Shown here: in pieces, positions 3,385 through 48,298 of the stretch
Position numbering within the stretch: the stretch's first letter is position 1
Layout of the letters: each line of letters begins with the position of its first letter
Virus record (IMG/VR): IMGVR_UViG_3300037297_000228
Strand: one strand, 5' to 3'
DNA: 48,298 nucleotides
DNA from: a virus
Position numbers and translations under genes: made by a program
Notes under the pieces: model-generated
Database searches by the model: none
What the model was told of the DNA's origin: nothing
What the model saw: the letters and a program-made list of their open reading frames with translations, nothing else

Positions 3385-3392
3385 ATTTCCTC

Positions 3393-10065: not shown

Positions 10066-10101
10066 AAAGCCCGTATCTCAGGTAGAGGTGCGGGCTTTTT
10101 T
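10066..10101 (+). terminator. Rho-independent terminator
   Basis: Stem AAAGCCCG (10066..10073) pairs with CGGGCTTT (10091..10098), followed by a T run to 10101. Confidence 0.55.
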
Positions 10102-10120
10102 ATGGAGAAAATTTTTGAAA

Positions 10121-11795: not shown

Positions 11796-13022
11796 ATGAG
11801 TGTAACACCTAACGGACTTGATGTATATAGTAGATATATGGATGACATGTTTGACTTAAAAGATGTTATTGGGGTACCTACAGTTTGGCAGCAGTTTTAC
11901 GGCAAATCTCAATTTGGAAATTCTAAAACAATCTATAGTCCATTTTCTGAGGTTATTGATATTGATCTTATAGGAGCAAACGAGAGAACAGCAAAATTAA
12001 TTCCTCGTGGAACTGATAGCAGACACACAGGAGATATACAAAGAAATACTACCACCCAATATTTTACAACAAAAAATATGGTTTTCCCATTTGCAGAAGA
12101 GCTTGGAGATATTTCTGCGAATCAAATTAATAAACGCCTGGCAGGCGAAAATCCTTATGAAGGGCAAGACAAAATTTCCAGGTTGAGAAAATTAGCACTT
12201 GAACATCATAAAGAACATATTAGACGTTATGTACGTCTATTCGAACTACTTGCAGGTTCAAGTTTGCTTACAGGACAAATGCCGGCAATATTGGGAACAA
12301 ATAATCCAGATCTAATTTATGATTGGGGAAGGAATGCAGCTTTAACAATTACTCCTACAGTAGCGTGGAACAATGCCGCTGCTGATATTATAGGGGATAT
12401 AGATAATGCTTTTGATTTAGTTCGTCAACTTGGAAAGGTAAAATTTAATCTAATGTTTATGGCCAGGGATGTTTCACATGCCTTTTTTAATGATGCAACA
12501 ATACAAAAATTGGCTGATAATAGACGAATTACATTAGTTCAAGTCGGAGAGGGGATTCAAGTTCCGCAAATGTTTTCTGATCTTGTTGCTGCTGGGGCAG
12601 ATTATCTTGGTTATATCGGGACACCCCAGGGCAGGCGATTGGATCTATTTTGTTATAACGATTTTTATGATGATCCAGACGGAGTTTCTCAGCCATATAT
12701 GCCGGATGGGACAGCATTTTTGGCTTATTACGGTGCAAGATGTGACCGTTATTTTGGACCATCTGAGAGGTTGCCATTAGTTTCTACTGATATGGCGTGG
12801 TACTCTGAAATGTTTGGGTTTAGTCCTTTAAGCGTTCCGTTTCCTGATAAAATTATGGCACCTGGAATTGTAACACCAGATATGTTTTATTGCGATGCTT
12901 ATCAATCTGGCGACAAGAAAAAAGTGACCGTCCGTACACAATCAGCGCCAATTTTCGCAACTACACAGACAAATGCCTTTGCGACCCTGAACAATCTAAT
13001 TGAAGGAGAGGTAAGTTCATGA
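11796..13022 (+). CDS. Major capsid protein (lambda gpE family)
   Basis: The C-terminal TVRTQSAPIFATTQTNAFATL parallels lambda gpE FTMIQSAPLMLLADPDEFVSVQL. Position and size also fit. Confidence 0.85.
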   Translation: MSVTPNGLDVYSRYMDDMFDLKDVIGVPTVWQQFYGKSQFGNSKTIYSPFSEVIDIDLIGANERTAKLIPRGTDSRHTGDIQRNTTTQYFTTKNMVFPFAEELGDISANQINKRLAGENPYEGQDKISRLRKLALEHHKEHIRRYVRLFELLAGSSLLTGQMPAILGTNNPDLIYDWGRNAALTITPTVAWNNAAADIIGDIDNAFDLVRQLGKVKFNLMFMARDVSHAFFNDATIQKLADNRRITLVQVGEGIQVPQMFSDLVAAGADYLGYIGTPQGRRLDLFCYNDFYDDPDGVSQPYMPDGTAFLAYYGARCDRYFGPSERLPLVSTDMAWYSEMFGFSPLSVPFPDKIMAPGIVTPDMFYCDAYQSGDKKKVTVRTQSAPIFATTQTNAFATLNNLIEGEVSS

Positions 13023-16192: not shown

Positions 16193-17002
16193 ATGATATT
16201 GCCTGTATACATATTGATTCGCACAAGCGGGAGACCGTTATTTTTCAAGCGAATGATGGAGACAATTAAAAATCAAACTTATAAAAATATTGTTACCATC
16301 GTTCATAGTGACGACCCCCGTGATGATTATGTTGCAGGCGATATCATTATCAGAGGCACCGCTTATGGCCCCGAATATGGAAACGGTACCTATAATTTAT
16401 ATAATAACAGATTATTAAAAGCAATCCCTGGTACTGGATGGTTTCATTTTATAGATGATGACGATGAATATGCAAGCGAAGATGTAATTGAAAGGCTTGT
16501 CGAAAATTCTAAAAAAGATTTTATAAACGTTGGTAGAGTTCAAAGATGGAATAAAACAATTTTCCCCAAAAAATGGGGAGAACAAAAAAGTTATCAGACC
16601 GAATGTTTCTTTTTGCATACTGACTATAGATTTAAGGCCAAATGGTGGGGACATAAAAATGGAGATCATAATTATAGTAAACAGCTCACAAAAATTTTGC
16701 CGATAAATTGGATTGATAATTTAATGATCTGCAAGGCCCAGGAAGGAAAAGGTCATGGACGTAAAATTGATAAAGGCGGGATAAAAAGTAAAAGGAAAAG
16801 TTTTCCTCCTGAAAGCAAAATTCCTGTTTTGGGTTTGACAAGGATTATGAAAGGACAAAAAAAAAATTGGATAAAACAAGGCGAATTAAAATATATGCAA
16901 TATGATCTTGCTGAAAAACTGGAAAAAGAAGGAAAAGTGAAAATAACAAACTGGGCAAATTTTAAAGAGAAAAAACCAGTTAAAAATATTTTTAATTTAT
17001 GA
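16193..17002 (+). CDS. GT-A fold glycosyltransferase (family-2-like), inserted in the tail operon
   Basis: N-terminal LIRTSGRPLFFKRMMETIKNQTYKNIVTIVHSDD and the DxD-type FHFIDDDDEY motif. The gene contains an A10 run at 16857..16866. Confidence 0.7.
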   Translation: MILPVYILIRTSGRPLFFKRMMETIKNQTYKNIVTIVHSDDPRDDYVAGDIIIRGTAYGPEYGNGTYNLYNNRLLKAIPGTGWFHFIDDDDEYASEDVIERLVENSKKDFINVGRVQRWNKTIFPKKWGEQKSYQTECFFLHTDYRFKAKWWGHKNGDHNYSKQLTKILPINWIDNLMICKAQEGKGHGRKIDKGGIKSKRKSFPPESKIPVLGLTRIMKGQKKNWIKQGELKYMQYDLAEKLEKEGKVKITNWANFKEKKPVKNIFNL

Positions 17003-17765: not shown

Positions 17766-19443
17766 ATTTGCAGTAGGTACAGCGTTTAAGGGTAGTGACA
17801 GTTTAAGCCCTGTTTTTCGCAAAATGACAGTTGGTGTTGATAAATTCGGAAGAGCTGGATTAAATGCTTTCGCAAGAATGCGCCGAGGTGCTTCAAGATT
17901 ATTAGGTCCATTGCGTGGATTAATGCCGGCCTTTAGTGTTGCAGGAGTTGTGCGTTTTGGAAAAGCTTCAATTGATGCTTTTAATAAACAACAAGCTGCT
18001 GTCGCGAATGTAGAAGCTGGATTAAAATCTACTAATAATGCGATCGGAATAACATCTAAAGACTTTCAAAAAATGGCTGCTGATACTCAAAAAGTAGGAA
18101 TTTTTGGAGATGAAACAATATTGCAAAACGCAACTGCTCAATTATTAACTTTTGGAAATATAGGAAAACAAAATTTTGATAGAGTGCAAAAAGCTGCTCT
18201 TGATGTTACTGCAAAATTATATGGAGTTAAGGCAACGGGTGAACAGGTCAGGACAACCTCTATTATGATGGGAAAAGCAATGGACGATCCTATCCGTGGA
18301 ATGGGAGCAATGCGCCGTGTGGGAATTTCTTTTTCAAAAGCTGAAGAAATGCAAATCAAATCTATGGTAAGAGCCAATAACATGTTAGGAGCTCAAAATG
18401 CAATGTTAAAATTAATAGAGCGTCAATATGGAGGCACAAACGCAGAACTTGCTAAAACAAATGAGGGAATGGAAATAGTAACTAAAAATAAAATGGGCGA
18501 TACTATGGAATTAATAGGCAAACAAATTGCACCTTTAAAAATGGCGTTTTTAGATTTCGCAGTTTGGATTTTGCCAAAAATAAATACTGCGTTGCCTATT
18601 TTTATCGGATTTTTAAAGAAGATCGGTCCTTATGTTTTGGCTTTAACAGGATTTTTTGCCCTCTATAAAATTCAATTAATGGCAGTTGCAGCAAAACAGG
18701 CAATTTTGCAGGGTTCCGGATTTATCGGATTTATTATGAAAATCGGGAAAGCTATAAAAGGATTAACAATTGTACAATGGCTATATAATGCGGCAGTTTC
18801 CGCAAATCCTGCTGTTTTTATCGTTTTAAAAATTATTGCTGTGGTAGGTATTCTTATCGGATTAGGATATTTAATCTACAAAAACTGGAACAAAATTAAA
18901 AAAGTATTTTTAAAATTTATTTCAGTATTTAAAAAATTTAAAATTGTAAAATTATATATAGGATTTTTAGCTACAATTCCAAAAATTATTGGTGCAGCAT
19001 GGACATGGCTAACAGGAAAAATTTCTGAATTTGCGTCGGCTATTGCTAATTTTTTCATAAATGCTAAAAATAAATTAGTAGCTTTTTCCGAAATGGCTTG
19101 GCAGGCTTTTAAAAAAGTAGGTCGTGTAATATCTACAGTTCTTTTGTTTCAAATTAATCTTTTAATTACAGGAATTACAAAATTGTTTACTCTTGCTTCA
19201 AAATTACCCGGTGTAGGATCAAAATTTAAAGCTGCTGCCGAAAAATTAGCAGGATTACAGGCGTCTATGAACGAGGCAGTTGGAGCAACAAATGTATTCG
19301 CACCAAACCAGGCAGAAACAGAATCCAGGAAAATTCAGTTTGAGGGAAACATAAATATAGGCAATGCACCTAAAGGCACAACAGTAAATAGCAAAACCAG
19401 GGGAGCCAATAATATAGATATGAACCTGGTAGGGCAGCAATGA
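17758..19443 (+). CDS. Tail tape measure protein
   Basis: 561 aa, Ala/Gly/Lys-rich and helical, with a central hydrophobic block. It lies downstream of the G/GT pair. Confidence 0.85.
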   Translation: MPEFAVGTAFKGSDSLSPVFRKMTVGVDKFGRAGLNAFARMRRGASRLLGPLRGLMPAFSVAGVVRFGKASIDAFNKQQAAVANVEAGLKSTNNAIGITSKDFQKMAADTQKVGIFGDETILQNATAQLLTFGNIGKQNFDRVQKAALDVTAKLYGVKATGEQVRTTSIMMGKAMDDPIRGMGAMRRVGISFSKAEEMQIKSMVRANNMLGAQNAMLKLIERQYGGTNAELAKTNEGMEIVTKNKMGDTMELIGKQIAPLKMAFLDFAVWILPKINTALPIFIGFLKKIGPYVLALTGFFALYKIQLMAVAAKQAILQGSGFIGFIMKIGKAIKGLTIVQWLYNAAVSANPAVFIVLKIIAVVGILIGLGYLIYKNWNKIKKVFLKFISVFKKFKIVKLYIGFLATIPKIIGAAWTWLTGKISEFASAIANFFINAKNKLVAFSEMAWQAFKKVGRVISTVLLFQINLLITGITKLFTLASKLPGVGSKFKAAAEKLAGLQASMNEAVGATNVFAPNQAETESRKIQFEGNINIGNAPKGTTVNSKTRGANNIDMNLVGQQ

Positions 19444-26474: not shown

Positions 26475-27665
26475 TTAAAATTCCCAAATTTCAGAAACTC
26501 CTTCCGTAAAATGAGATGTTAATCCAGTTATAAAACTATATCTATATGTGTTTGCATCGTAAATAAAATATAAATAATCATTTGCAATTACGGGGCTTAA
26601 TGTTTGCTGCAAAGCTAAACCTGTTGATCTATAACCATCTCCTGTATAAAGACGAATTGATAATTGATATTGGTCGACGCTTGGAACATATCTAATTACA
26701 TGTCCAGAATTACACTCAATCCAGTATAATACATCTTCTCCATTTTCATAGCGAGTTCCAGCGGGGATAATAACAACTCCTTCAGAATATCCGGTATCGT
26801 ATGGACGCATTCTCCAATTCAGCATTGTTGAGCCATTTTCTACTAGTGTAGTTCCGTCCCAGGTGTAACCATTTTGACTATACCAAGTATCACCCGATTT
26901 TAGCCAATGATTAGCACCATTTAAAAAATTTGTTGTCCAACTTACTGCAATATTATTGATAATTGCAGTATGTGCACTTGAATTATAATCCCATATAGCA
27001 AAGCCGTTTTCAACTACAATTCTAATATTTGTTTTACTGCCGTTCAAATGTTTCCAGGCACCTGTTGTAATTTGTCCCCAAATATCGTCATTTAATACTA
27101 CTATTTTTTCGCAAAAATACTGATTATCAAACCAATTACCCTGTTCTATACTATTTAAATATATTTTTGTATAATCTTTATAAAGAGCTCCCATATCGTA
27201 AGCTTCTTGAGGGAGAATATGTTCTATAATCCAGATATCAGATTCACCTAAATTAATCTCTTCCTGAATTTCTCCCCTGGATGCAATATATTCAGGATTA
27301 ATTGCAACTGCATCAGGTTCAATTATAAGATTTCTACTTGCAATAGTTTCGCCTCTTTCGTCAAGTTTATAGATAACATTCCCTGATGTATAAATTCTGT
27401 TTGTTGCTTTTTTGATATTTCCAGTTTTCCACTCCCAGATAGTATTTCCATCGTAAAATTTGGTTGATTCTGATGTATAGAAAACTACCTTTACAGTTCC
27501 AAATTCTGCAGGTGGAACCGGACCAACTACCTCTACTGGATTATCTGCGTCAGGATTTGTAATAATTACTGTATTATCGTCATTATTATCAGCAGTATCA
27601 CTTCCTCCACAGTAAAAATTAAATGTTAGAAATATCATTAATAAAATTTTAATTATTTTTTTCAT
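26475..27665 (-). CDS. Secreted lipoprotein, beta-rich and Trp/Tyr/Asn-rich (396 aa)
   Basis: MKKIIKILLMIFLTFNFYCGGSD is a signal peptide with a lipobox Cys. The gene has its own SD (AAGGAGG), promoter-like boxes and a terminator. Confidence 0.8.
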   Translation of the reverse strand: MKKIIKILLMIFLTFNFYCGGSDTADNNDDNTVIITNPDADNPVEVVGPVPPAEFGTVKVVFYTSESTKFYDGNTIWEWKTGNIKKATNRIYTSGNVIYKLDERGETIASRNLIIEPDAVAINPEYIASRGEIQEEINLGESDIWIIEHILPQEAYDMGALYKDYTKIYLNSIEQGNWFDNQYFCEKIVVLNDDIWGQITTGAWKHLNGSKTNIRIVVENGFAIWDYNSSAHTAIINNIAVSWTTNFLNGANHWLKSGDTWYSQNGYTWDGTTLVENGSTMLNWRMRPYDTGYSEGVVIIPAGTRYENGEDVLYWIECNSGHVIRYVPSVDQYQLSIRLYTGDGYRSTGLALQQTLSPVIANDYLYFIYDANTYRYSFITGLTSHFTEGVSEIWEF

Positions 27666-34832: not shown

Positions 34833-35086
34833 ATTATCTCCTCAAAACCATATTCAAAAGCCTTCTTATTAATAAATTTTTTAAATTTATAATCAGAATA
34901 GTTTTTTACTTTAATTATCATTTTAATTTTTTCTAAAAATAATGTTTTTTCATCTATTATATTCATTAAACAATCAATACAAATTTTTTCTTTTGGTACA
35001 TCATTTAAAATATTTTGCCAATTTGCTTTATTTTTTTTACAAATTGTACATTTATAACCTTTTATTCTGCATAAATTACCAGACAT
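34829..35086 (-). CDS. Cys-rich small protein, 85 aa
   Basis: CTICKKNK...CIDC pairs suggest zinc binding. Confidence 0.55.
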   Translation of the reverse strand: MSGNLCRIKGYKCTICKKNKANWQNILNDVPKEKICIDCLMNIIDEKTLFLEKIKMIIKVKNYSDYKFKKFINKKAFEYGFEEII

Positions 35087-35643
35087 TTCCCTTTCCCCCT
35101 ATTAATATATTTTTTAAGCCAGTCAAATCTATAAGGAATCTCTTTCCCATTATCATTTTTATAGTTACTTCTTGCATCTCCAAAAGGGTCATTAACTACA
35201 AATACATCGACATTCGGCAAATAATCTACTAACAAAATTATATGACCTCCTTTTAATCCACCAATTTTTGAAGTATGAATAATAACAGGTCCCTTGATTA
35301 CTAAACTTCGTAAATCTTCAATATCATAAAATTCATCAAAAATTATTTTTTTATTTGGCAAATAATCTTGTATAGCTGCCTGCTGCACTAATGCCCAGTA
35401 AGAAGTTTTACCTTTAATCCAGCTATATTTTTTTTTAATTTCTTCTGCAATTCCCGCCTTTCCAACCTCTGCTTCAACTTCATCTACATAATTTTTTAAC
35501 ATTGCATCGTCTGTCCCATCATAAAATTGTCCATAATAAGATAGGAACATCCAGGCACAAGTTGAAAAACATTGTTTATATCCTGAAAAACCGCCATCAA
35601 AATTAAAATTATCTCTTTGGGAATTATAATCTATTTCACGCAT
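35062..35643 (-). CDS. Papain-fold cysteine peptidase (C39-like)
   Basis: YNSQRDN...GYKQCFSTCAWMFLSYYG (Cys nucleophile context), GGHIILLVDY (His) and VVNDPFGD (Asp). Confidence 0.6.
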   Translation of the reverse strand: MREIDYNSQRDNFNFDGGFSGYKQCFSTCAWMFLSYYGQFYDGTDDAMLKNYVDEVEAEVGKAGIAEEIKKKYSWIKGKTSYWALVQQAAIQDYLPNKKIIFDEFYDIEDLRSLVIKGPVIIHTSKIGGLKGGHIILLVDYLPNVDVFVVNDPFGDARSNYKNDNGKEIPYRFDWLKKYINRGKGKCLVIYAE

Positions 35644-35654
35644 TCATTACCTCC

Positions 35655-35981
35655 TTATACAACAATATTTACAAAAATTGCTGTTTTTATTTCTTCTGCT
35701 GCTTTTTTTTCTTCATAATCAATATCAACTTTTAATTCTATTTCTTCCTCAGATAAATTATCTAAATCATAATTATTATTTAGTTCGTCATAAATTTCGT
35801 CATTTATATAAATTCTTTCAGATGGCATATAATAATCACAAATTTCGCAATTCCCAATTTTGCCTAAAAACCAAGAATATGGTTCACCGCAAAATAAATC
35901 ATCTTCAACTTTACAAAGTACTTCAAGTTCTGGATTTTCTTCTATTAATTTTATTAAAGATTTTATTTTATCGTTTTTCAT
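35655..35981 (-). CDS. Highly acidic small protein, 108 aa
   Basis: Asp/Glu-rich throughout (DELNNNYDLDNLSEEEIELKVDIDYEE). Family not recognised. Confidence 0.55.
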   Translation of the reverse strand: MKNDKIKSLIKLIEENPELEVLCKVEDDLFCGEPYSWFLGKIGNCEICDYYMPSERIYINDEIYDELNNNYDLDNLSEEEIELKVDIDYEEKKAAEEIKTAIFVNIVV

Positions 35982-36711
35982 TCATTACCTCTTTTTCAAA
36001 TAATTCAACATAGTTTTTAGGATTATGATCACAATTATATTTTTTGCGCCATTTTTTTATCATGATTAAATTTTTAATTAATTTAAATTTTGATCTTTTT
36101 CCTAATTGTAATATTTTACCGGGAACTGTCATAAATGGAACTACATAAGTAACAAGATCGTTTTTATGTCTTATTTGCAATATTTTATCACCAAAAAGTC
36201 TATTTATTTCTTTTTGAGCATTTTTATCAAGACTTTTGTTTGCTCCCATAGTAATAACTTCCAAATCTTTTACTATATATAAAAACATAAAAGCTAAAAT
36301 ATTAGCAACTGAACCGCCCAGACTATGACCTCGCAAACAAATAGTATATCCTTTTTGGGTATATCTGAAAATATTTTCAATCTCTTCATCAAAAATTCTT
36401 TTTGCATGCTGATAATGTCCATAATGCAATTTTTTGTAATCATATTTAAATTTTTTCACAAACGGCCAGAATACAGGAAGAACTCTTAAATTATCCCACC
36501 AGTCTTTACCACCTCTTGATCCCTGTACATAAATATAATATTTTTTATTTTCTTCATCAACAGATGTATACCAATCAGAATTTTCCTTTTTTTTCCAGAT
36601 TCTATTCGTATGAGATATTTCATATTTTCCATAGCGACCATTGTATGTCATAGCTATGTTTTTCATTTCCTGTAGAATGTATTTTTTGTTATTTAGCATT
36701 TTTGTCCTCAT
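35968..36711 (-). CDS. Class 3 lipase / alpha-beta hydrolase
   Basis: The ICLRGHSLGGSVANILAF nucleophile elbow (GHSLGG) sits in a typical Lipase_3 context. Confidence 0.7.
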   Translation of the reverse strand: MRTKMLNNKKYILQEMKNIAMTYNGRYGKYEISHTNRIWKKKENSDWYTSVDEENKKYYIYVQGSRGGKDWWDNLRVLPVFWPFVKKFKYDYKKLHYGHYQHAKRIFDEEIENIFRYTQKGYTICLRGHSLGGSVANILAFMFLYIVKDLEVITMGANKSLDKNAQKEINRLFGDKILQIRHKNDLVTYVVPFMTVPGKILQLGKRSKFKLIKNLIMIKKWRKKYNCDHNPKNYVELFEKEVMNEKR

Positions 36712-36916
36712 TTTCTAATATTTTTCTTAATTTGTTTGCTTTCAAATATAATTTATATAAATATTCATTTACTTCTTCATCTGTCATTTTTTTAAAAATT
36801 ATTTTTTTTCTTATACAAAGGTCTATATATTCATCACACTTTTGTTTCCCAATAAGATAACATCCATCGCAATCACCTGGTTCGATTTCTTTAGTCTTTT
36901 TTAAAAATATTTTCAT
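36689..36916 (-). CDS. Hypothetical small protein, 75 aa
   Basis: ORF with a Cys pair (CDGC) and a helical C-terminus. Confidence 0.5.
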   Translation of the reverse strand: MKIFLKKTKEIEPGDCDGCYLIGKQKCDEYIDLCIRKKIIFKKMTDEEVNEYLYKLYLKANKLRKILENEDKNAK

Positions 36917-37009
36917 AGTATTTTCCTTTTCTTTTTAAATATTCTATTAAAAATTTTCTGAATATTTTTTATCCCTGAAATTATATATATTATTAGGTAT
37001 AGGATCATT

Positions 37010-37447
37010 TTATCCCTGCCATTTTCTCTTCCTTCCTGAATCTATATGTATACCCCAATTATAAAGACCTAAACCTCCAGGTAAAATATTTTGATCCCAG
37101 GCTTCAAGTGCCCATAAATGTAATTCTTTAATAATTATTCTATCTGCATGTCCATCCCAGGCCATGCCTGCTATGTGTTTGCTACCAAATACAACACGGC
37201 GTAAATCCTGGTCGTGATCCAAATCAAAAACTTTACCCTGTCGTTTATACGAATTTTCATAAATTGATTTATTATGATCAAGACATCTATTTACGCAATG
37301 TGTTATCATTCTTAAGCTACCGATAAGAACTCTAAAATTTTCTAAAATTTCATAAAGTTTTTCGTTTATTAATGCCTGCCCACATCCACAACGGCAAGTA
37401 ATTTCTGCAAGTGAGAAATGTTCAGAGGGTTTCATTTTTGCCTCCAT
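37010..37447 (-). CDS. Peptidase M15A-type cell-wall hydrolase (endolysin candidate)
   Basis: SEHFSLAEITCRCGCG at the N-terminus, CLDHN, and GSKHIAGMAWDGHAD (the H..G.A.D zinc ligand motif). The start may instead be ATG 37435, which overlaps the upstream stop. Confidence 0.75.
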   Translation of the reverse strand: MEAKMKPSEHFSLAEITCRCGCGQALINEKLYEILENFRVLIGSLRMITHCVNRCLDHNKSIYENSYKRQGKVFDLDHDQDLRRVVFGSKHIAGMAWDGHADRIIIKELHLWALEAWDQNILPGGLGLYNWGIHIDSGRKRKWQG

Positions 37448-41353: not shown

Positions 41354-41548
41354 TTATTCTACCTCTTTAACAGAAATATCCTTATAATATAATCCCCCCA
41401 TTTCCCAGAAAGTTGATTGTTTCGACTGATAATTTATGAGTGTAATAGTATCTATATGTTTCCCCCCTTGATAGACTTCGTAAGTATGAATATATTTCTT
41501 ACATCCAACAATAAAAAATAAAATAATAATTGTTAATATTTTTTTCAT
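41354..41548 (-). CDS. Small lipoprotein, 64 aa
   Basis: MKKILTIIILFFIVGCKK is a signal peptide with lipobox IVGC. Confidence 0.65.
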   Translation of the reverse strand: MKKILTIIILFFIVGCKKYIHTYEVYQGGKHIDTITLINYQSKQSTFWEMGGLYYKDISVKEVE

Positions 41549-42240
41549 CTAATTTCCTCCAATCCCACGATAGTAGGTTTAATTTTAATAATTCCCTGCT
41601 CTCTATTCCAACACATTTCTTTCCAGGCTTTTTTGCGATATGCTCCACCGTATCTTGTCACTCCTGATTTTGTCAGCGATTTTGGATGTCTTCTGCGTAG
41701 ATACATCCCCTTTAGGCTCTCATAAATTTTAAATCCTGCCATTTTTAGCCTTTCCATAAAATCGGTATCTCCGGCACATCGATATCCATAATATCCGCCT
41801 AATGCTTCCCAAATTTCATGTGTAAAAGCCATTGCGCCACCTGTTTCAATAATAGGTTTTCTATTTATATAATTTAAATTTTTATCGCATTGATATTTTG
41901 CCAGCAAAACTGCCTGATGAACATTATTTATTATATTAATTTGATATCTTATATATCCTTGCAACATAACGTCATCTGCATCGAAATAACTATAAATGTC
42001 CGCTTTTTCAAAATTTATAAGGCTATTTCGCATAATGTAGGCACCAACATTTTTTTTGGACCAATAAAATTTTATCTTATTTTTCTTTAAAACATCGGCA
42101 GTTTTTTTACATCCATCAACACCAATTCTAAGATCATAATGCCACCCTGGTATTCGATATTGATTTTTTACAGAATTAATGCATTTTATTATATATTCTG
42201 CACAATCGTACGCTGCTATTATTATTGCGCATGTTTTCAT
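41545..42240 (-). CDS. Family 2 glycosyltransferase
   Basis: CAIIIAAYDCAEYIIKCINSVKNQ and YFDADDVM (DxD) motifs. ATG 42240 overlaps the upstream stop (ATGA) and is preferred over the ORF-track start at 42282. Confidence 0.8.
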   Translation of the reverse strand: MKTCAIIIAAYDCAEYIIKCINSVKNQYRIPGWHYDLRIGVDGCKKTADVLKKNKIKFYWSKKNVGAYIMRNSLINFEKADIYSYFDADDVMLQGYIRYQINIINNVHQAVLLAKYQCDKNLNYINRKPIIETGGAMAFTHEIWEALGGYYGYRCAGDTDFMERLKMAGFKIYESLKGMYLRRRHPKSLTKSGVTRYGGAYRKKAWKEMCWNREQGIIKIKPTIVGLEEIR

Positions 42241-42458
42241 ATCTTTATTAACCATTTTTTTGGAAGATTTACTGCAATGCATTCACCAACCCGCATTAAA
42301 ATTCTTGGATATTTATCATCATATGCGTCTCGCCAAACTTTTGTTTGATAACCATCAAAATTTATTTGCATAATTTTATACGCTGCAAACGCGTCTTCTT
42401 TACAAATTTTAGCTGGAATTTTTATAATTGCATAAAAATAATCATTTTCTGCCTTCAT
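42237..42458 (-). CDS. Hypothetical protein, 73 aa
   Basis: ORF translationally coupled to the GT2 gene. Confidence 0.5.
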   Translation of the reverse strand: MKAENDYFYAIIKIPAKICKEDAFAAYKIMQINFDGYQTKVWRDAYDDKYPRILMRVGECIAVNLPKKWLIKI

Positions 42459-42460
42459 AT

Positions 42461-42640
42461 TTACTCTCCTTTTATAATATTTAATTTTATATATTTTGGT
42501 ATATGCTCTCTTAACATCAATTTTCCAGAAATATCTATTCCTCTTTGCTCATATATTTTTTTTATATACCCATTTTCTAAAATTATTTTATATGGAAAAA
42601 ATTTATAACCTGATATTCTATCATAACATTCTATTTTCAT
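42461..42640 (-). CDS. Microprotein, 59 aa
   Basis: MKIECYDRISGYKFFPYKIILENGYIKKIYEQRGIDISGKLMLREHIPKYIKLNIIKGE. Below the ORF-track cutoff. Confidence 0.4.
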   Translation of the reverse strand: MKIECYDRISGYKFFPYKIILENGYIKKIYEQRGIDISGKLMLREHIPKYIKLNIIKGE

Positions 42641-42643
42641 AAT

Positions 42644-42808
42644 TTACCATCTATATTTTTTAAAAAAATTCAATAGACATTCTTTACAACAAAAATCATA
42701 ATTATCATTCGAGGCACCAAGAGAACAAACTGTTTGAAGATTTATTTTTATGATATAATCTCCTAATTTCATTATTTTTTTACAATTATCACATATTTTC
42801 ACTTTCAT
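42644..42808 (-). CDS. Zinc-finger microprotein, 54 aa
   Basis: MKVKICDNCKKIMKLGDY...DFCCKECLLNFFKKYRW contains CxxC...CCxxC. Coupled to the upstream ORF by ATGA. Confidence 0.45.
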   Translation of the reverse strand: MKVKICDNCKKIMKLGDYIIKINLQTVCSLGASNDNYDFCCKECLLNFFKKYRW

Positions 42809-42999
42809 ATCTTCTCCCATAAATCACAATCAAAATATCCTTCAAAATCTTCTAAAAACATTACTTCATGTCCGGATTCATTTAAAAAAGAATCTGCTGC
42901 AACGATAGGAGTTAAAGGAGTAAACATTTTGGCTTTTACTTTATCACCTTTTCTAAATTTAGGTGTAAAATTTTTATTTAAGTTCCAAGCTCCTAGCAT
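42805..42999 (-). CDS. Hypothetical protein, 64 aa
   Basis: ORF in the track, directly abutting the methyltransferase gene. Confidence 0.5.
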   Translation of the reverse strand: MLGAWNLNKNFTPKFRKGDKVKAKMFTPLTPIVAADSFLNESGHEVMFLEDFEGYFDCDLWEKI

Positions 43000-43511
43000 T
43001 ATACGTTCCTCCAGAAATATATTATTCTGTCTTTTATCAAATTTTTAGAAGATGGTCTTCGTCCATATGTCCATTTTGATATTTTTTGTTCATCTATACC
43101 ACGGTGCATTACATCACCATGTTTCCATCTATACGGAAAACTTAATATTACATTTTTGCTTATTCTGCATAACTCTTTAAAAGCTTTTGCCTGGTTTTCC
43201 AGATGTTCCCAAACCTGCAAAGCAACTGCACAATCAAAATGATTATTAGGTAATTGATAAGGAATTTTATTTAAATCCTGAATTTTTCCTCTTCCAGTTA
43301 CTAAATATTTTTCTTCAAGTTCTAAAAGATACGAATCTGAATTAAGAGGGATATAAAATGTCCCCATTTCCAAAGTGTTTTTAGCTCCTACAGATTGCAT
43401 AAGCCGAATTACATAAGACATATATTCCCATCTGTATTTTTTACCTTCATTCCAATATGGGATATTGAGGTCTTTTACTCTTTTTAAAAATCTTTTATTT
43501 GTCAGATACAT
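42999..43511 (-). CDS. Class I SAM-dependent methyltransferase (Methyltransf_11/23-like)
   Basis: DCAVALQVWEHLENQAKAFKELCRISKNVILSFP fits the post-motif-II region of small-molecule methyltransferases. ATG 43511 with an AAGGA SD is preferred over TTG 43547. Confidence 0.55.
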   Translation of the reverse strand: MYLTNKRFLKRVKDLNIPYWNEGKKYRWEYMSYVIRLMQSVGAKNTLEMGTFYIPLNSDSYLLELEEKYLVTGRGKIQDLNKIPYQLPNNHFDCAVALQVWEHLENQAKAFKELCRISKNVILSFPYRWKHGDVMHRGIDEQKISKWTYGRRPSSKNLIKDRIIYFWRNV

Positions 43512-43668
43512 TATTTTTATCCTTTGTTTTAATTTGTATAGTATCAAATAAATATGTTGCTACACAAAAATTAAATATAATTTGAAAAATATTTTCTTTA
43601 AATCCATCAATTATTCCATAGACAACACAAAATAAATTTAAAATTAATAATATAATTAAAGTTGTCAT
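43495..43668 (-). CDS. Small membrane protein, 57 aa
   Basis: MTTLIILLILNLFCVVYGIIDGFKENIFQIIFNFCVATYLF... Coupled to the upstream ORF by ATGA. It overlaps the methyltransferase start by 17 nt. Confidence 0.35.
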   Translation of the reverse strand: MTTLIILLILNLFCVVYGIIDGFKENIFQIIFNFCVATYLFDTIQIKTKDKNNVSDK

Positions 43669-43871
43669 AATTTTTTAACCTTTTTTAATAAATTTTTTTT
43701 CACCTGCAAATATACAAATTTTCTTTTATTATGCGATGTTAAATTTATTGGACAAATTCCAGTTCTAAAAGGACATTTTTTATAGAAAAAACATAATTTA
43801 CCTTTACCTTCAATACCTGCATTACAGTTACCACCAAAATTTTTAAATTTTTTAAGATATATTTTTCCCAT
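43665..43871 (-). CDS. Basic Cys-containing small protein, 68 aa
   Basis: Four Cys residues (CNAG...C...C...C) and a Lys-rich tail, with a GGGAGA SD. Confidence 0.5.
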   Translation of the reverse strand: MGKIYLKKFKNFGGNCNAGIEGKGKLCFFYKKCPFRTGICPINLTSHNKRKFVYLQVKKNLLKKVKKL

Positions 43872-43875
43872 TTAT

Positions 43876-44526
43876 TTATTTTCTCCCATCCAAATGTGTA
43901 ACACAAGCCGGATGTCCTTTTTTGCCATAAATACAACCTAATAAATTTGTTTTTTTTGTTAATTCATCTTCGATACCTTTACTGCCAGGCATTTTTAAAA
44001 TTGCTCCCTCTCTGACAAATTGCAAATATTTTTTTCGATTAATTATATGCGGGTTATTAGAAACTGCAGGAGTAACACAATAATAAAAATTTCCTCTGTT
44101 AAATTGTTCTAGCCATCTATCCCATAGTTTAGGTTCATTTTTACGCTTATTAAATCTAAGATGGTGTATATTTTCATGTCTCATATTTTCAATTATTTCA
44201 AATAAATCATGATTAATATTTTTTTTCTGAAATATCCAATCGTGTTCCAGCATAAATAAATATTCAGATTTTGAATTTTCTATTGCTTTTATGTATCCAT
44301 CTGATAAAGAGGTTGTTATATTTATTTTATCAGGTTTAAAACAACTTTTCAATAAATTTGTCACATAATATCCAACTTGATGTCTTTCAGGATTAATATC
44401 ACACCATATAGTCGGTTCAATTTTAAAAAATGTATCACAAAAAGACTTATATGTTTTTCTAATTATTTCTGTAGACGGAGCTGATTTTGTGCAATTTGTA
44501 AATATATGTAATTCTATTGTAGTCAT
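43876..44526 (-). CDS. Hypothetical protein, possible nucleotide-sugar transferase fold (216 aa)
   Basis: The beta-alpha start TIELHIFTNCTKSAP and an acidic LEHDW motif are suggestive only. The gene is embedded between methyltransferase and glycosyltransferase genes. Confidence 0.4.
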   Translation of the reverse strand: MTTIELHIFTNCTKSAPSTEIIRKTYKSFCDTFFKIEPTIWCDINPERHQVGYYVTNLLKSCFKPDKINITTSLSDGYIKAIENSKSEYLFMLEHDWIFQKKNINHDLFEIIENMRHENIHHLRFNKRKNEPKLWDRWLEQFNRGNFYYCVTPAVSNNPHIINRKKYLQFVREGAILKMPGSKGIEDELTKKTNLLGCIYGKKGHPACVTHLDGRK

Positions 44527-44537
44527 AATTAAATCCC

Positions 44538-44786
44538 TTAAAATATTTTTATTAGTTTTTCTTTCTCATGAAAAAAATCATAAGAATTTCTTTCCATTCT
44601 TGCAATAGCAAACCTGAAAAAATTAAATTGCCATTTATTAGTATATTCATTTTTCCAATAATTTATTTTTTTTAGATATTTCATATTTGCAAATAATCCT
44701 ATTTTATAACAACTATTTTTTGTTTTAAAGAGGATCCCTTTTGATTCATTATCAGGAATATCAATTGAATATAAATATATTTTCAT
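44538..44786 (-). CDS. Hypothetical protein, 82 aa
   Basis: ORF translationally coupled (4-nt overlap) to the upstream methyltransferase gene. Confidence 0.5.
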   Translation of the reverse strand: MKIYLYSIDIPDNESKGILFKTKNSCYKIGLFANMKYLKKINYWKNEYTNKWQFNFFRFAIARMERNSYDFFHEKEKLIKIF

Positions 44787-45319
44787 CTCTTAACCCTCAC
44801 AAACCAGGTATAATCAGAATCAATCTCAATAACATCATTATCAGGAAATAAATCAACAGCTTCTTTTACCCCTGTAAATTTCCCGCCATAATCATGTCCG
44901 CAAATCCAGCCATTATTTTTTACTTTTGGTCTCCATGCATTAATATCATTAAGTACCGACCAAAAATCATGAGCAGCATCAATATATACAATATCAAAAT
45001 ACTTATCTTCAAAAGTGTCTGCAATTTTTGTTGAATACCCCTTAATTATAAAAGCCCTTGTCGGGAATTTTTCAGCAATTTTTGACGTTTCAAGCAAATT
45101 ATCCAGACAATTTTGTTGATAAATTTCAATATTTTCATCTATTGCTGGCTTTCCTTTATAAGTTTCTGTGTCCCAGGCATCTATCAGAAACATTGTTAAA
45201 TTTTTTGTATTTGTAAGCAGTCTTTCTGACAAATGTCCTTTGAAAACTCCGACTTCTGCCATTATTGTTTCTTTTTTATCATCTATGCGTTTAATAATAT
45301 TTTGCCATGCGTAATTCAT
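44783..45319 (-). CDS. Class I SAM-dependent methyltransferase (Methyltransf_24 / TylF-CmcI-like, sugar O-methyltransferase type)
   Basis: MAEVGVFKGHLSERLL (SAM-binding motif I) and DIVYIDAAHDFWSVLNDINAWRPKVKNNGWICGHDY are typical of this family. Confidence 0.7.
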   Translation of the reverse strand: MNYAWQNIIKRIDDKKETIMAEVGVFKGHLSERLLTNTKNLTMFLIDAWDTETYKGKPAIDENIEIYQQNCLDNLLETSKIAEKFPTRAFIIKGYSTKIADTFEDKYFDIVYIDAAHDFWSVLNDINAWRPKVKNNGWICGHDYGGKFTGVKEAVDLFPDNDVIEIDSDYTWFVRVKR

Positions 45320-46991: not shown

Positions 46992-47180
46992 TTACCTTTT
47001 TAAAATATAATTTTCAAAATCATTTTTATGTATAATTAGTGTATCAGAATATATTTTACTTGGTTTATATGCTATTTCTGCAATATCAAAAAATTTTTTT
47101 AATTGTTTAAAATTTAATTCTATTACTTTATTTTTTTCGAATATAAAATTTAATCTTGATTTTTTATGATCGTATTTCAT
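46992..47180 (-). CDS. Hypothetical protein, 62 aa
   Basis: ORF in the track. Confidence 0.5.
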   Translation of the reverse strand: MKYDHKKSRLNFIFEKNKVIELNFKQLKKFFDIAEIAYKPSKIYSDTLIIHKNDFENYILKR

Positions 47181-47208: not shown

Positions 47209-47282
47209 TGGGCAAGGAAGGACTCGAACCTTCAATACCTTTTCCTAAATGTCTTTTTCAGATCATCAAAGATCACTTGCCC
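47209..47282 (-). ncRNA. tRNA-like element 1 (74 nt) with a non-canonical D/anticodon region
   Basis: The minus strand reads GGGCAAG-TGATCTTTGATGATCTGAAAAAGACATTTAGGAAAAGGTATT-GAAGG-TTCGAGT-CCTTC-CTTGCCC-A. It has a perfect 7-bp acceptor stem, a canonical T arm and a discriminator A, and no encoded CCA. No standard anticodon stem-loop can be drawn. Confidence 0.45.
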
Positions 47283-47294
47283 TTAAGTCGATTT

Positions 47295-47744
47295 TTAAAT
47301 AATTTGTTCAAATGCCTTTTGAAAATCATCAACATAATATTTTCTTTTTCTTTCGAGTTCAGCAATTTCTATTTTCTTTTTTTCAATTTGTCTATTGAAT
47401 TTATCCAAAATATTTGATTTTGTAAAAATCTTTTCGTAATTATTATAATGAACAATTTCGTATTTTGGCTGGTCTTTTTCCGTTTTTACCGTGATAAAAT
47501 CAAAATCGACATCACTATAACCATCATCTAAAACCATTATTTCTATTGCGGGATTGTTTTCAAATTCAGCAAACCCAACAATAACACCAGCTTTAATTTT
47601 GGGTGATGAATAACTCATATCAAGAACTTTAACAGGATCCCCGACATGAAATGTATCAATGCGTTTTGCATTTCGCAAATCCACTTCCATTTTAATTCCA
47701 TTTATTTCAATGATTCTTTTATCTTTCTTTTCCATTTCTTCCAT
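47295..47744 (-). CDS. Hypothetical protein, 149 aa
   Basis: ORF in the track with an N-terminal beta-rich region and a C-terminal coiled coil. It is flanked by a 14-nt direct repeat. Confidence 0.6.
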   Translation of the reverse strand: MEEMEKKDKRIIEINGIKMEVDLRNAKRIDTFHVGDPVKVLDMSYSSPKIKAGVIVGFAEFENNPAIEIMVLDDGYSDVDFDFITVKTEKDQPKYEIVHYNNYEKIFTKSNILDKFNRQIEKKKIEIAELERKRKYYVDDFQKAFEQII

Positions 47745-48114: not shown

Positions 48115-48285
48115 TTATTTAATTTTTTTCCAAATCCAGATCATAAATATATAAAATATCAAATCAGCCTGGAATAAAATTACCCAGTCTTCACCTTTAT
48201 TTTTGTTAATAAATAGGTAATATCCTATTGTAATTGAAACAGATATTAATAATATTACTGCTGCTCCCCAAATTAATTTTTTCAT
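48115..48285 (-). CDS. Small two-TM membrane protein, 56 aa, spanning the terminal-repeat boundary
   Basis: GGAGACAAA SD followed by ATG 48285. Sequence MKKLIWGAAVILLISVSITIGYYLFINKNKGEDWVILFQADLIFYIFMIWIWKKIK. The 5' 114 nt lie inside the 127-bp repeat. Confidence 0.5.
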   Translation of the reverse strand: MKKLIWGAAVILLISVSITIGYYLFINKNKGEDWVILFQADLIFYIFMIWIWKKIK

Positions 48286-48298
48286 TTTGTCTCCTTTA
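48172..48298. repeat. Terminal direct repeat, right copy (identical to 1..127)
   Basis: Exact 127/127 match to the start of the window. Confidence 0.97.

What the first reader, a model, noticed from the sequence alone, without database searches (positions are those of the whole stretch)
41545..45319. Glycan-tailoring gene cluster in the early/accessory block: GT2, two SAM methyltransferases and a second transferase-like protein
Within 3.8 kb on one strand, and translationally coupled, lie the following genes:
- a family-2 glycosyltransferase (41545..42240);
- a Methyltransf_11/23-like enzyme (42999..43511);
- a 216-aa protein with a transferase-like LEHDW motif (43876..44526);
- a Methyltransf_24 / TylF-CmcI-type enzyme typical of sugar O-methylation (44783..45319).

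Microproteins, a small membrane protein (43495..43668) and an adjacent lipoprotein (41354..41548) are interspersed. This looks like a pathway that builds or decorates a methylated sugar.

Candidate targets, all inference:
- host surface polysaccharide, giving receptor masking or superinfection exclusion;
- virion proteins;
- phage DNA (sugar hypermodification).

I know of no described phage system with this combination.
Basis: partly seen in the sequence, partly recalled or inferred. Interest (0 to 1): 0.65.

Follow-up and report, generated by a model that had tools for sequence, protein, structure and literature searches.

The report
Phage-encoded virion sugar-coating gene set
This uncultured 48-kb phage carries three sugar-adding and two methyl-adding enzymes that most likely build a small methylated sugar chain on the last serine of its own capsid protein, which would extend phage self-glycosylation beyond the mycobacterial phages where it was first shown.

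Summary
Four enzyme genes sit on the minus strand at the stated coordinates, with gene gaps of -17 to +21 nt:
- a GT2 glycosyltransferase;
- a Methyltransf_11-like methyltransferase;
- a 216-aa protein that AlphaFold2 and Foldseek show to be a GT-A glycosyltransferase of an unannotated family (called GTA216 here);
- a Methyltransf_24 cation-dependent O-methyltransferase type.

They form a real module. Relatives hold them as compact operons and as fusion proteins.

It is inserted between the tail tube and tail chaperone genes and is fused to the GT2 in other phages.

Evidence on the target:
- The window is a complete genome with no detectable base hydroxylase or hydroxymethylase, so DNA is unlikely.
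- All five enzymes are predicted soluble.
- GTA216 lies inside head-gene modules in three unrelated phage lineages.
- Among relatives of the capsid protein, 19 of 19 with GT269 end in Ser, against 4 of 39 without. This is one clade, so one evolutionary event.

Best reading (about 0.55): virion O-glycosylation. This is analogous to, but not homologous with, the Corndog and Che8 system. All of it is inferred from sequence, with no chemistry.

The parts
44783..45319 (-). MT24: Methyltransf_24 / TylF-type cation-dependent O-methyltransferase (178 aa). Proposed role: sugar O-methylation.
   Evidence: Pfam PF13578 E 1.2e-14. Invariant residues include E22, G24, G28, D109, D114, H117, H142 and D143. 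Best PDB profile hits are O-methyltransferases: 3ntv 7e-4, 6g7d, NovP. It lies next to GTA216 in 11 loci.
43876..44526 (-). GTA216: GT-A fold glycosyltransferase of an unannotated, almost wholly phage/metagenome family (216 aa). It is the conserved core of phage glycan clusters and the proposed initiating transferase.
   Evidence: It has no Pfam, PHROG or NCBIfam hit. AF2 gives pLDDT 94. Foldseek matches SpsA, POMGNT1, LH3 and TarP at probability 1.0. There are 347 homologs at about 50% identity and 547 clusters at 50% identity. Invariant residues include E94-x-D96, S156-N-N-P-H160 and H211-x-D213-G214.
42999..43511 (-). MT11: class I SAM methyltransferase, Methyltransf_11-like (170 aa). Proposed second sugar methyltransferase.
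   Evidence: Pfam PF08241 E 8.9e-6. Orthologs lie between GTA216 and GT2 in L046, L009, L011 and L019. A GTA216::MT11 fusion protein exists, P0393. No PDB relative was found.
41545..42240 (-). GT2: family-2 GT-A glycosyltransferase (231 aa). Proposed elongating transferase.
   Evidence: Pfam PF00535 E 8.8e-11. PDB sequence hits are 6p61 at 2.4e-6 and TarP at 2e-4. There are 123 homologs. It is fused to GT269 in L011 and L043 and to GTA216 in P0408, P0455 and P0469.
16193..17002 (+). GT269: third GT-A glycosyltransferase (269 aa, with a basic C-terminal extension of about 70 aa). It is inserted in the tail operon between tube and chaperone.
   Evidence: Pfam PF00535 E 5.9e-5, 23.5 bits against a cut-off of 23.3. 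The motifs HSDDPRD and FIDDDDEY are invariant. AF2 gives pLDDT 91. Foldseek matches WrtF and SpsA at about 2e-7. The slot is the same in L142-L144. In L009 it is adjacent to GTA216, and in L011/L043 it is fused to GT2.
11796..13022 (+). Major capsid protein (408 aa, ends ...EGEVSS). Proposed acceptor: the C-terminal Ser, codon 13017-13019.
   Evidence: PHROG 29, major head protein. Terminal Ser occurs in 19 of 19 relatives that carry GT269 and in 4 of 39 that lack it. The capsid and major tail proteins of the glycosylated phages Che8 and Corndog also end in Ser. The acceptor role is inference.
42237..44786 (-). Interspersed small ORFs: 44538-44786, 43665-43871, 43495-43668 (membrane), 42805-42999, 42644-42820, 42461-42640 and 42237-42458. 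Probably passengers rather than pathway members.
   Evidence: ORFs are listed. Only 43665-43871 has a counterpart, in 1 of 54 related loci. The 57-aa ORF has KD19 2.56.

Best explanation
The phage encodes a cytoplasmic virion-glycosylation system with five soluble enzymes.

Proposed steps:
1. Late in infection, host nucleotide sugars are used to build a short O-linked glycan of up to about three sugars on virion subunits. The most likely site is the C-terminal serine of the major capsid protein.
2. GTA216 is proposed to add the first sugar. It is the one component shared by all such clusters, and it occurs alone next to the capsid gene in T4-like phages.
3. GT2 and GT269 extend the chain.
4. 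The Methyltransf_24 and Methyltransf_11-like enzymes O-methylate sugar hydroxyls, capping the chain.

Shown from sequence:
- the folds and families of the five enzymes;
- their functional linkage through operons and fusions;
- their embedding in structural operons;
- the absence of a detectable DNA-hydroxylation route;
- the association between capsid terminal Ser and GT269.

Inferred:
- the acceptor;
- the order of steps;
- the sugar identities;
- the biological benefit (shielding or stabilising the particle).
For: 1. One pathway. MT24-GTA216-MT11-GT2 are contiguous in L046, L019 and L009, and L009 also holds GT269 directly upstream of GTA216. Fusion proteins exist for GT2::GT269 (L011/L043, residues 2-226 and 236-491), GTA216::MT11, GT2::GTA216 and GTA216::GT269-like, and GTA216 with a different GT2-type domain (L007).

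2. Link to virion genes.
- GT269 occupies a slot of about 0.8 kb between tube and chaperone in 18 related loci. The same junction has a median gap of 29 bp in 39 relatives that lack it (gene context).
- GTA216 lies 74-90 bp after the gp23-type capsid gene in 17 T4-like loci.
- GTA216 lies between portal/protease and capsid genes in L012 and L018, and just after the capsid gene in L035.
- GTA216 lies right after the large terminase gene in L043.

3. Acceptor signal. The capsid protein ends in Ser in 19 of 19 GT269-positive relatives, although the preceding residues vary. It ends in Ser in 4 of 39 GT269-negative relatives (Fisher 9e-12, not corrected for phylogeny).

4. Precedent.
- Mycobacteriophage glycans sit at the C-termini of capsid and tail-tube subunits (Freeman 2023, as cited in PMC12619734).
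- Che8 gp6 and gp11 and Corndog gp41 and gp49 all end in Ser.
- The Corndog genes run portal, then a TylF/Methyltransf_24 O-methyltransferase, then three small genes reported as glycosyltransferases (gp37 and gp38 hit GT-A families), then protease and capsid.

5. All five enzymes lack transmembrane segments.

6. The genome is complete, with a 127-bp terminal overlap. It has no thymidylate-synthase-like, TET/JBP, C5-methyltransferase or polymerase hit among ORFs of 180 aa or more.
Against: - There is no chemical or proteomic evidence.
- GT269-positive phages form one clade on the capsid tree. The terminal-Ser association is therefore a single evolutionary event, although Ser is retained across deep divergence.
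- In the T4-like lineage, terminal Ser is also common without an adjacent GTA216 (33 of 48, against 17 of 17 with it).
- In this window four of the five genes lie among recombination and early genes, not late genes.
- The glycosyltransferases show no detectable sequence homology to Corndog gp37 and gp38.
- The nearest characterised relatives of the GT2 act on cell-wall polymers: TarP and TuaG.
- I could not read Freeman 2023, so 'the terminal Ser is the attachment residue' is my inference.
Confidence: 0.55

Rival explanations
1. Host envelope glycan modification. The enzymes act in the cytoplasm on lipid-linked O-antigen or capsule intermediates, or on teichoic-type polymers. This would change the cell surface to mask receptors, exclude superinfecting phages or keep progeny from sticking to debris.
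For: - The GT2's closest characterised relatives are wall-polymer enzymes: TarP 2e-4 and TagF, and TuaG 7e-8.
- Source databases name its homologs 'glycosyltransferase involved in cell wall biosynthesis'.
- Sister modules carry a TupA-type ATP-grasp enzyme and UDP-glucose dehydrogenase.
- Neighbours of GTA216 elsewhere include GDP-mannose dehydratase, GT25, Stealth and pyruvyl transferase, as in polysaccharide loci.
- Comparable cyanophage clusters are usually read this way (PMC12801897).
- Rhodomicrobium chromosomes have a GTA216 homolog beside a GT2 gene.
Against: - There is no flippase, GT-C or Gtr-type membrane partner, and none of the five enzymes has a transmembrane segment.
- No integrase or repressor was detected, so there is no sign of lysogenic expression.
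- GT269 sits inside the tail operon, and GTA216 sits inside head operons in three lineages. Presumably late expression in a lytic cycle leaves little time to remodel the surface.
- This reading does not explain the capsid terminal-Ser pattern.
Confidence: 0.22
2. DNA hypermodification. The glycosyltransferases attach a methylated glycan to a hydroxylated base in phage DNA to evade restriction.
For: - Phage GT-A enzymes related to LPS and teichoic-acid enzymes glycosylate 5hmC, and such clusters can lie near structural genes (Pyle 2023).
- Arabinosylated 5-hydroxycytosine has been described (PMC13326640).
- In some relatives the module lies near the large terminase, RecA or gp32 genes.
- A radical-SAM gene and a ParB-methylase gene sit next to the small terminase gene in this window.
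Against: - The complete 48-kb genome has no thymidylate-synthase homolog, no TET/JBP dioxygenase, no C5 cytosine methyltransferase and no DNA polymerase among the ORFs scanned.
- Both annotated DNA methylases are of the N6/N4 type.
- MT24 groups with O-methyltransferases.
- Neither a thymidylate-synthase nor a TET/JBP family appears among the 25 commonest of the 82 Pfam families found in 122 GTA216 neighbours.
- The radical-SAM gene is absent from the corresponding terminase-proximal region in relative L001.
Confidence: 0.08
3. Another soluble acceptor. The glycan is built on a small molecule, a nucleotide or a non-virion protein, for example a host factor or a defence component, and the position in structural operons is incidental.
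For: - GT-A enzymes glycosylate very diverse acceptors.
- GTA216 is conserved at about 50% identity across phages with unrelated capsids, which would fit a universal acceptor.
- Only 3 of roughly 12 context types place it in head modules.
Against: - No acceptor-specific partner gene recurs with the module.
- The fusions found involve only glycan-building enzymes and one 189-aa protein of unknown function.
- The positions in structural operons and the terminal-Ser pattern would be coincidences.
Confidence: 0.15

Closest known systems
Mycobacteriophage virion O-glycosylation (Che8, Corndog, Myrna; Freeman et al. 2023, Cell Host Microbe 31:1216)
   Same: - The enzymes are phage-encoded, small, soluble GT-A enzymes plus a TylF/Methyltransf_24 O-methyltransferase. 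Corndog gp35 hits TylF at 7.6e-13 and Methyltransf_24 at 1.8e-9.
- The genes can sit inside the head module. Corndog runs portal gp34, gp35-38, protease gp39, capsid gp41.
- Capsid and tail-tube proteins are glycosylated at their C-termini, and those proteins end in Ser, as this phage's capsid protein does.
   Different: - No sequence homology is detectable between GTA216 and gp37 or gp38 (hhalign probability below 3%), or between the methyltransferases beyond the shared fold.
- This phage is an uncultured, AT-rich myovirus of unknown host.
- Here the genes are split between the tail operon and the early region.
- There are two methyltransferases.
- Nothing has been shown chemically.
Chlorovirus PBCV-1 capsid glycosylation machinery (for example A064R, which joins two rhamnosyltransferase domains and a methyltransferase domain). 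Recalled from the reviews listed (PMC5408694, PMC9614988); not read here.
   Same: - The virus encodes cytoplasmic glycosyltransferases together with sugar O-methyltransferases that decorate its own major capsid protein.
- Glycosyltransferase-methyltransferase fusion proteins occur there, as with GTA216::MT11 here.
   Different: - That is a eukaryotic giant virus whose glycans are N-linked at atypical sites and much larger.
- Homology was not tested here.
Phage DNA glycosylation clusters (T4 alpha- and beta-glucosyltransferases; 5hmC and 5hoC glycosyltransferase clusters, Pyle 2023 and Lee 2026)
   Same: GT-A enzymes with SpsA- or TarP-like folds, sometimes two in tandem with sugar-modifying partners, occur in uncultured phages.
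   Different: Those clusters depend on a thymidylate-synthase homolog, or on a C5 methyltransferase plus a 5mYOX dioxygenase. None is detectable in this complete genome.
Prophage-encoded host glycan modifiers (Gtr serotype-conversion clusters; TarP)
   Same: They use family-2 GT-A catalytic domains. TarP is among the PDB matches of all three glycosyltransferases here.
   Different: - There is no GtrA or GtrC, and none of the five enzymes has a predicted membrane segment, unlike GtrB.
- There is no lysogeny module.
- The genes here lie in structural operons.

Membership tests
CAZy/Pfam glycosyltransferase family 2 (GT-A) | Match to PF00535 above the gathering score, with a DXD motif | tested here: met
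   41545-42240 scores 42.5 bits against a cut-off of 23.3 and carries DADD. 16193-17002 scores 23.5 against 23.3, which is borderline, but DDDD is invariant and the AF2/Foldseek fold is GT-A.
GT-A fold glycosyltransferases (for the 216-aa protein) | Rossmann-like GT-A fold with an acidic metal-binding motif after strand 4 | tested here: met
   AF2 gives pLDDT 94. Foldseek matches SpsA, POMGNT1, LH3 and TarP at probability 1.0 and TM 0.53-0.59. E94-x-D96 is invariant. No Pfam family matches; Glyco_tranf_2_5 reaches only E 0.083.
GT-A fold glycosyltransferases (for the 216-aa protein) | Demonstrated sugar transfer and a known donor | not testable with these tools
   This needs an enzyme assay. 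A nucleotidyltransferase with the same fold scores lower (IspDF, TM 0.44).
TylF / Methyltransf_24 cation-dependent O-methyltransferases | Match to PF13578 with conserved acidic and His metal ligands, and no DNA-methylase motif IV | tested here: met
   E 1.2e-14. D109, D114, H117, H142 and D143 are invariant. PDB profile hits are O-methyltransferases. The translation contains no (D/N/S)PP(Y/F) motif.
Mycobacteriophage virion glycosylation system | Phage-encoded small glycosyltransferases with a TylF-type O-methyltransferase | tested here: met
   Compare.
Mycobacteriophage virion glycosylation system | Sequence homology of the glycosyltransferases to Corndog gp37 and gp38 (Che8 gp110 class) | tested here: not met
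   hhalign probabilities are 2.6% and 0.3%. Che8 gp110 itself was not compared. The system here is therefore an analogue, not a member.
Mycobacteriophage virion glycosylation system | O-glycan on the C-terminus of capsid or tail-tube subunits | not testable with these tools
   Only indirect evidence exists. The capsid protein ends in Ser, and this is strictly kept in the 19 GT269-positive relatives. The tube protein ends in Ala.
Phage DNA base glycosylation pathway | A thymidylate-synthase-like hydroxymethylase or hydroxylase, or a C5 methyltransferase plus a TET/JBP dioxygenase, in the same genome | tested here: not met
   No such Pfam, PHROG or NCBIfam hit occurs among the ORFs of 180 aa or more in the complete genome. 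Three proteins stay unassigned: 396, 241 and 184 aa.
Gtr-type serotype-conversion cluster | GtrA flippase, membrane-anchored GtrB and a GT-C partner, in a temperate phage | tested here: not met
   None of the five enzymes has a transmembrane segment. No integrase was detected.

The most novel reading that the evidence does not exclude
GTA216 defines a previously unannotated glycosyltransferase family found almost only in phages and metagenomes. It would start O-glycosylation of capsid proteins at their C-terminal serine.

Its spread is wide. It forms 547 clusters at 50% identity. It occurs in phages from 40 kb to 400 kb, including an abundant aquatic T4-like subclade. It is absent from 50,697 GenBank phage records.

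If this reading is right, self-glycosylation of virions, often with methylated, pyruvylated or phospho-linked sugars, is widespread among uncultured environmental phages. It would not be a peculiarity of actinobacteriophages.
Probability: 0.35. Interest if true: 0.78.

Novelty: new variant of a known kind. Interest (0 to 1): 0.6.

Why it matters
By my recollection of its abstract, the paper that established phage virion glycosylation saw little evidence for it outside actinobacteriophages.

If this module glycosylates the capsid, several things follow:
- A non-homologous enzyme set does the same job in an unrelated lineage of uncultured phages.
- The GTA216 family becomes a ready genomic marker for finding glycosylated phages in metagenomes.
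- Surface glycans would affect particle stability, adsorption to non-host material, grazing and immune recognition, which matters for phage ecology and phage therapy.
- They would also affect how capsid proteomics and cryo-EM densities are read.
- The work gives about 350 'hypothetical' proteins a fold and a pathway context.
- The hypothesis is directly testable: the C-terminal Ser of the capsid protein as acceptor.

Tried and rejected
- **DNA and protein searches of GenBank phages.** The DNA search with the region found nothing. Protein searches with GTA216 and GT2 also found nothing. No cultured relative is available for annotation transfer.
- **MT24 homologs in cultured phages.** Those in Synechococcus phage ACG-2014f and in Fionnbharth-like mycobacteriophages (e.g. 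Mitti) are isolated genes, not in glycosyltransferase clusters, so they were uninformative.
- **Host inference.** The large terminase reaches only about 32% identity to Rhodobacter, Ralstonia and Roseobacter phages. MAG labels are scattered across Planctomycetales, Methylococcaceae and Bacilli. The host stays unknown.
- **Promoter and terminator scan.** It was no better than shuffled sequence.
- **T4-like natural experiment.** Terminal Ser is common with or without an adjacent GTA216, so this was inconclusive. I do not use it as support.
- **Other virion proteins.** The 137-aa neck protein ends in Ser in 12 of 19 GT269-positive and 17 of 39 GT269-negative loci, so there is no signal. The tube ends in Ala in both groups.
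- **Rhodomicrobium chromosomal homologs.** Their context is only a neighbouring GT2 between two-component-system genes, with no hint of the acceptor.
- **Literature.** Freeman 2023 and the journal version of Pyle 2024 are not held. I relied on citing papers and on the preprint.
- **Chance clustering.** Rejected on synteny and fusions.
- **The lipoprotein as an o-spanin or pathway member.** Rejected, because it is 4 kb from the endolysin gene and is not conserved with the module.

Full report
**What the window is**

The 48,298-base window has a 127-bp direct overlap between its two ends. It is therefore a complete circular assembly of about 48.2 kb.

It is a contractile-tailed phage:
- large terminase at 318-2645 (-);
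- portal at 7406-9022;
- ClpP-type protease at 10088-11332;
- capsid protein at 11796-13022;
- sheath at 14230-15798;
- tape measure at 17758-19443, followed by the baseplate genes.

GC content is about 31%. It has no close cultured relative. The large terminase reaches at most about 32% identity to any GenBank phage, and the region finds no DNA match. The host is unknown.

**Checking the observation**

| Coordinates | Result |
|---|---|
| 41545-42240 | Glycos_transf_2, E 8.8e-11 |
| 42999-43511 | Methyltransf_11, E 8.9e-6; only the C-terminal half of the profile matches |
| 44783-45319 | Methyltransf_24, E 1.2e-14 |
| 43876-44526 | No Pfam, PHROG or NCBIfam family |

The 216-aa protein (43876-44526) has 347 homologs at about 50% identity, all unannotated. 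With an alignment of these, AlphaFold2 gives a confident model (pLDDT 94, pTM 0.91). That model is a GT-A glycosyltransferase fold. It matches SpsA, POMGNT1, the glycosyltransferase domain of LH3, TarP and RmlT at Foldseek probability 1.0 and TM 0.53-0.59. Viral matches reach at most 17% identity. I call this family GTA216.

Gene spacing along the run is -17 to +21 nt. No terminator-like site lies on that strand. So 'one tightly packed transcription unit' is fair.

The 57-aa ORF is hydrophobic and the 64-aa ORF has a lipobox. Of the interspersed small ORFs, only 43665-43871 has a counterpart, in one of 54 related loci. I treat the small ORFs as passengers.

**Are the four enzymes one pathway?**

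Yes, on three lines of evidence.

- *Synteny.* Among 54 loci that carry GTA216, MT24 and GT2 each recur in 11 and MT11 in 7. In L046, L019 and L009 the genes are contiguous or overlapping, with no spacers.
- *Fusions.*
  - L011 and L043 encode a 499-aa protein made of the GT2 (residues 2-226) joined to a second glycosyltransferase (residues 236-491).
  - L007 encodes GTA216 joined to a GT2 domain.
  - L035 encodes GTA216 joined to a pyruvyl transferase.
  - An exhaustive profile search found 547 clusters at 50% identity. Among its 150 best hits, 29 are long multi-domain proteins. These include GTA216::MT11, GT2::GTA216 and fusions of GTA216 with rhamnosyltransferase-like, Stealth and pyruvyl-transferase domains.
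- *Neighbourhood.* In phages unrelated to the window, GTA216 is surrounded by sugar-nucleotide and glycan genes. In 122 neighbouring proteins, GDP-mannose dehydratase, epimerases, GT25, Stealth and rhamnosyltransferase-like domains each occur five times. ManC-type and pyruvyl-transferase domains each occur four times. FkbM methyltransferase, GT8 and GT47 also appear (examples).

GTA216 is thus the common core of variable phage glycan clusters.

MT24 belongs with cation-dependent O-methyltransferases. A profile search of PDB returns 3ntv, 6g7d and NovP, and no DNA methylase. The PHROG label 'DNA methyltransferase' is not supported.

While scanning the remaining large ORFs for DNA-modification enzymes, I found that 16193-17002 (+) matches Glycos_transf_2 at the threshold (E 5.9e-5).
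- It has 264 homologs at 52-93% identity (in the 120 listed), several named glycosyltransferase by their sources.
- The motifs HSDDPRD and FIDDDDEY are invariant.
- The model is confident (pLDDT 91) and has a GT-A fold, matching WrtF fucosyltransferase and SpsA at E about 2e-7.

I call it GT269. It sits directly after the sheath and tube genes and before the tail chaperone and tape measure. It holds the same position in relatives L142, L143 and L144.

It belongs to the same pathway. In L009 it lies immediately upstream of GTA216 in a seven-gene operon. In L011 and L043 it is the partner fused to the GT2. L143 and L001 are parts of the same 47.7-kb contig, so that phage also carries both halves of the system.

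**What is the target?**

*DNA is disfavoured.* Known phage DNA glycosylation needs a hydroxylated base. That base is made either by a thymidylate-synthase homolog or by a C5 methyltransferase plus a TET/JBP dioxygenase (Pyle preprint; PMC13326640). This complete genome has none of these among its ORFs of 180 aa or more, and no DNA polymerase. Its two DNA methylases are of the N6/N4 type. Three proteins remain unassigned: 396, 241 and 184 aa.

*Host surface glycan cannot be excluded but fits less well.*
- In favour: the GT2's nearest characterised relatives act on wall polymers (TarP, TuaG). Sister modules carry a TupA-type ATP-grasp enzyme and UDP-glucose dehydrogenase.
- Against: all five enzymes lack membrane segments. 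There is no flippase or GT-C partner, and no integrase was detected.

*Virion proteins fit best.* GT269 is part of the tail operon. GTA216 is embedded in head modules in three unrelated lineages:
- A T4-like subclade (17 loci). The order is prohead protease, scaffold, gp23-type capsid gene, then GTA216 after 74-90 bp. GTA216 identity tracks capsid identity, r = 0.78.
- L012 and L018. The order is portal/MuF, Stealth, S78 protease, rhamnosyltransferase-like GT, GTA216, capsid.
- L035. The order is portal/MuF, protease, capsid, GT, GTA216::pyruvyl transferase, Stealth.

This mirrors Corndog, the experimentally established case. Its order is portal gp34, a TylF/Methyltransf_24 O-methyltransferase gp35, the reported glycosyltransferases gp36-38, protease gp39 and capsid gp41.

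**A test of the acceptor**

Mycobacteriophage glycans are reported at the C-termini of capsid and tail-tube subunits. All four such proteins I read end in Ser:

| Protein | C-terminus |
|---|---|
| Che8 gp6 | ...KTGS |
| Che8 gp11 | ...SDGS |
| Corndog gp41 | ...LVGS |
| Corndog gp49 | ...KGDS |

The window's capsid protein ends ...EGEVSS. I fetched 80 loci holding relatives of this capsid protein at 32-77% identity. I then scored the tube-chaperone slot in each locus.
- GT269 is present in 19 loci. The capsid protein ends in Ser in all 19, although the preceding residues vary: IEGEAS, VLTRSS, LGGSES, CLTVSS, LSTVSS, VLSVTS, IEAEAS, VLTPES.
- The slot is empty in 39 loci, with a median of 29 bp between tube and chaperone genes. 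Only 4 of these capsids end in Ser. The others end in T (12), P (7), A (5), I (5), V (4), K (1) or E (1).

The caveat matters. On a neighbour-joining tree the GT269-positive phages form one clade. This is therefore one gain, not many. The Fisher value of 9e-12 overstates the evidence. What remains is strict retention of the last residue across a deep clade, whose sister clades show eight different terminal residues.

The parallel test in the T4-like lineage is inconclusive: 17 of 17 with an adjacent GTA216 end in Ser, against 33 of 48 without.

Among near-complete IMG/VR contigs, 3 of 4 GT269-positive and 0 of 9 GT269-negative contigs also appear in the GTA216 scan.

Within the window, the only five proteins that end in Ser all lie in the structural block: 5 of 32 there against 0 of 47 elsewhere.

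**Proposed mechanism**

The enzymes act in the cytoplasm on host nucleotide sugars. None of the ORFs scanned in this genome matches a sugar-nucleotide synthesis family.
1. GTA216 adds the first sugar. It is the universal component, and it is the only glycan gene found next to the T4-like capsid gene.
2. GT2 and GT269 extend the chain.
3. MT24 and MT11 O-methylate it.

The enzyme classes, their linkage and their genomic positions are shown. The acceptor, the order of steps, the sugars and the benefit are inferred.

I put virion glycosylation at about 0.55, host envelope modification at about 0.22, another soluble acceptor at about 0.15 and DNA at about 0.08.

**Comparison with known systems, and novelty**

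In function and composition the closest system is mycobacteriophage virion glycosylation. It is not a member of that system, because GTA216 shows no detectable homology to Corndog gp37 or gp38. Chlorovirus capsid glycosylation, with its glycosyltransferase-methyltransferase fusion protein, is a second analogue.

Three things are new:
- the GTA216 family, which is unannotated, absent from 50,697 GenBank phage records, yet present in phages from 40 kb to 400 kb;
- the split arrangement, with one glycosyltransferase in the tail operon;
- the implication that virion glycosylation reaches well beyond actinobacteriophages.

I rate it a new variant of a known kind, with interest 0.6.

Noticed in passing
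window 1-127 and 48172-48298: The first 127 bases repeat exactly at the end of the window. The contig is therefore a complete circular, or circularly permuted, genome of about 48,171 bp.
   Followed up: yes
window 2590-4556 (-): A radical-SAM protein (264 aa; related to the PA0069, Rv2578c and 'mobile pair B' families) lies directly next to a ParB-domain/N6-N4 DNA methylase fusion and the small terminase gene. This could be a DNA-directed modification pair. The radical-SAM gene is absent from the corresponding terminase-proximal region of relative L001.
   Followed up: partly
window 47209-47282 (-): A tRNA-like element lies in the intergenic gap between 46992-47180 and 47295-47744. Rfam tRNA scores 29.1 bits against a gathering score of 29, and the T-arm is a clean GGTTCGAGTCC. 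ARAGORN calls nothing. It may be a degenerate tRNA or an attP-type tRNA fragment.
   Followed up: partly
window 35062-37447 (-): The lysis region holds a class-3 lipase (35968-36711, Lipase_3 E 3e-14) between a Peptidase_C39_2-like protein and an M15-type endolysin. A lipase in a lysis cassette is unusual and might hint at a host with a lipid-rich envelope.
   Followed up: no
window 26475-27665 (-): A 396-aa protein sits at the junction of the structural and early blocks, where integrases often lie. It has no Pfam, PHROG or NCBIfam hit.
   Followed up: no
L001 11225-12558; L005 3792-4535 and 11246-12400: Sister phages insert a TupA-type ATP-grasp enzyme into the same module, plus a 189-aa protein that is also found fused to GTA216 (P0374). 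One of them also encodes UDP-glucose dehydrogenase. This suggests amino-acid-amidated uronic acid in their glycan.
   Followed up: partly
L021, L024-L030, L032-L034, L036-L040, L044 (about 10 kb in each locus): A subclade of an abundant aquatic T4-like lineage carries GTA216 as the only glycan gene, 74-90 bp after gp23. At least 598 IMG/VR stretches encode a relative of that capsid protein, and the 80 best are 79-86% identical to it. Close relatives have the downstream 148-aa gene directly after gp23 instead.
   Followed up: yes
L012 6669-9358; L017, L018, L020, L023, L031, L035: A recurrent trio consists of a rhamnosyltransferase-like GT, GTA216 and a Stealth-like sugar-phosphate transferase. 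In L012 it is interleaved with the portal, prohead protease and capsid genes.
   Followed up: partly
L052 9980-12213 (Rhodomicrobium udaipurense); also L053 and L054: Bacterial chromosomes carry a distant GTA216 homolog (about 30% identity). In L052 it is convergent with a 348-aa GT2 gene and lies between two-component-system genes. This may be the cellular source of the family.
   Followed up: partly
window 41354-41548 (-) and 43495-43668 (-): A 64-aa lipoprotein and a 57-aa membrane protein are embedded in the run but are not conserved in any related locus. They are candidates for superinfection-exclusion or moron genes, independent of the glycan pathway.
   Followed up: partly
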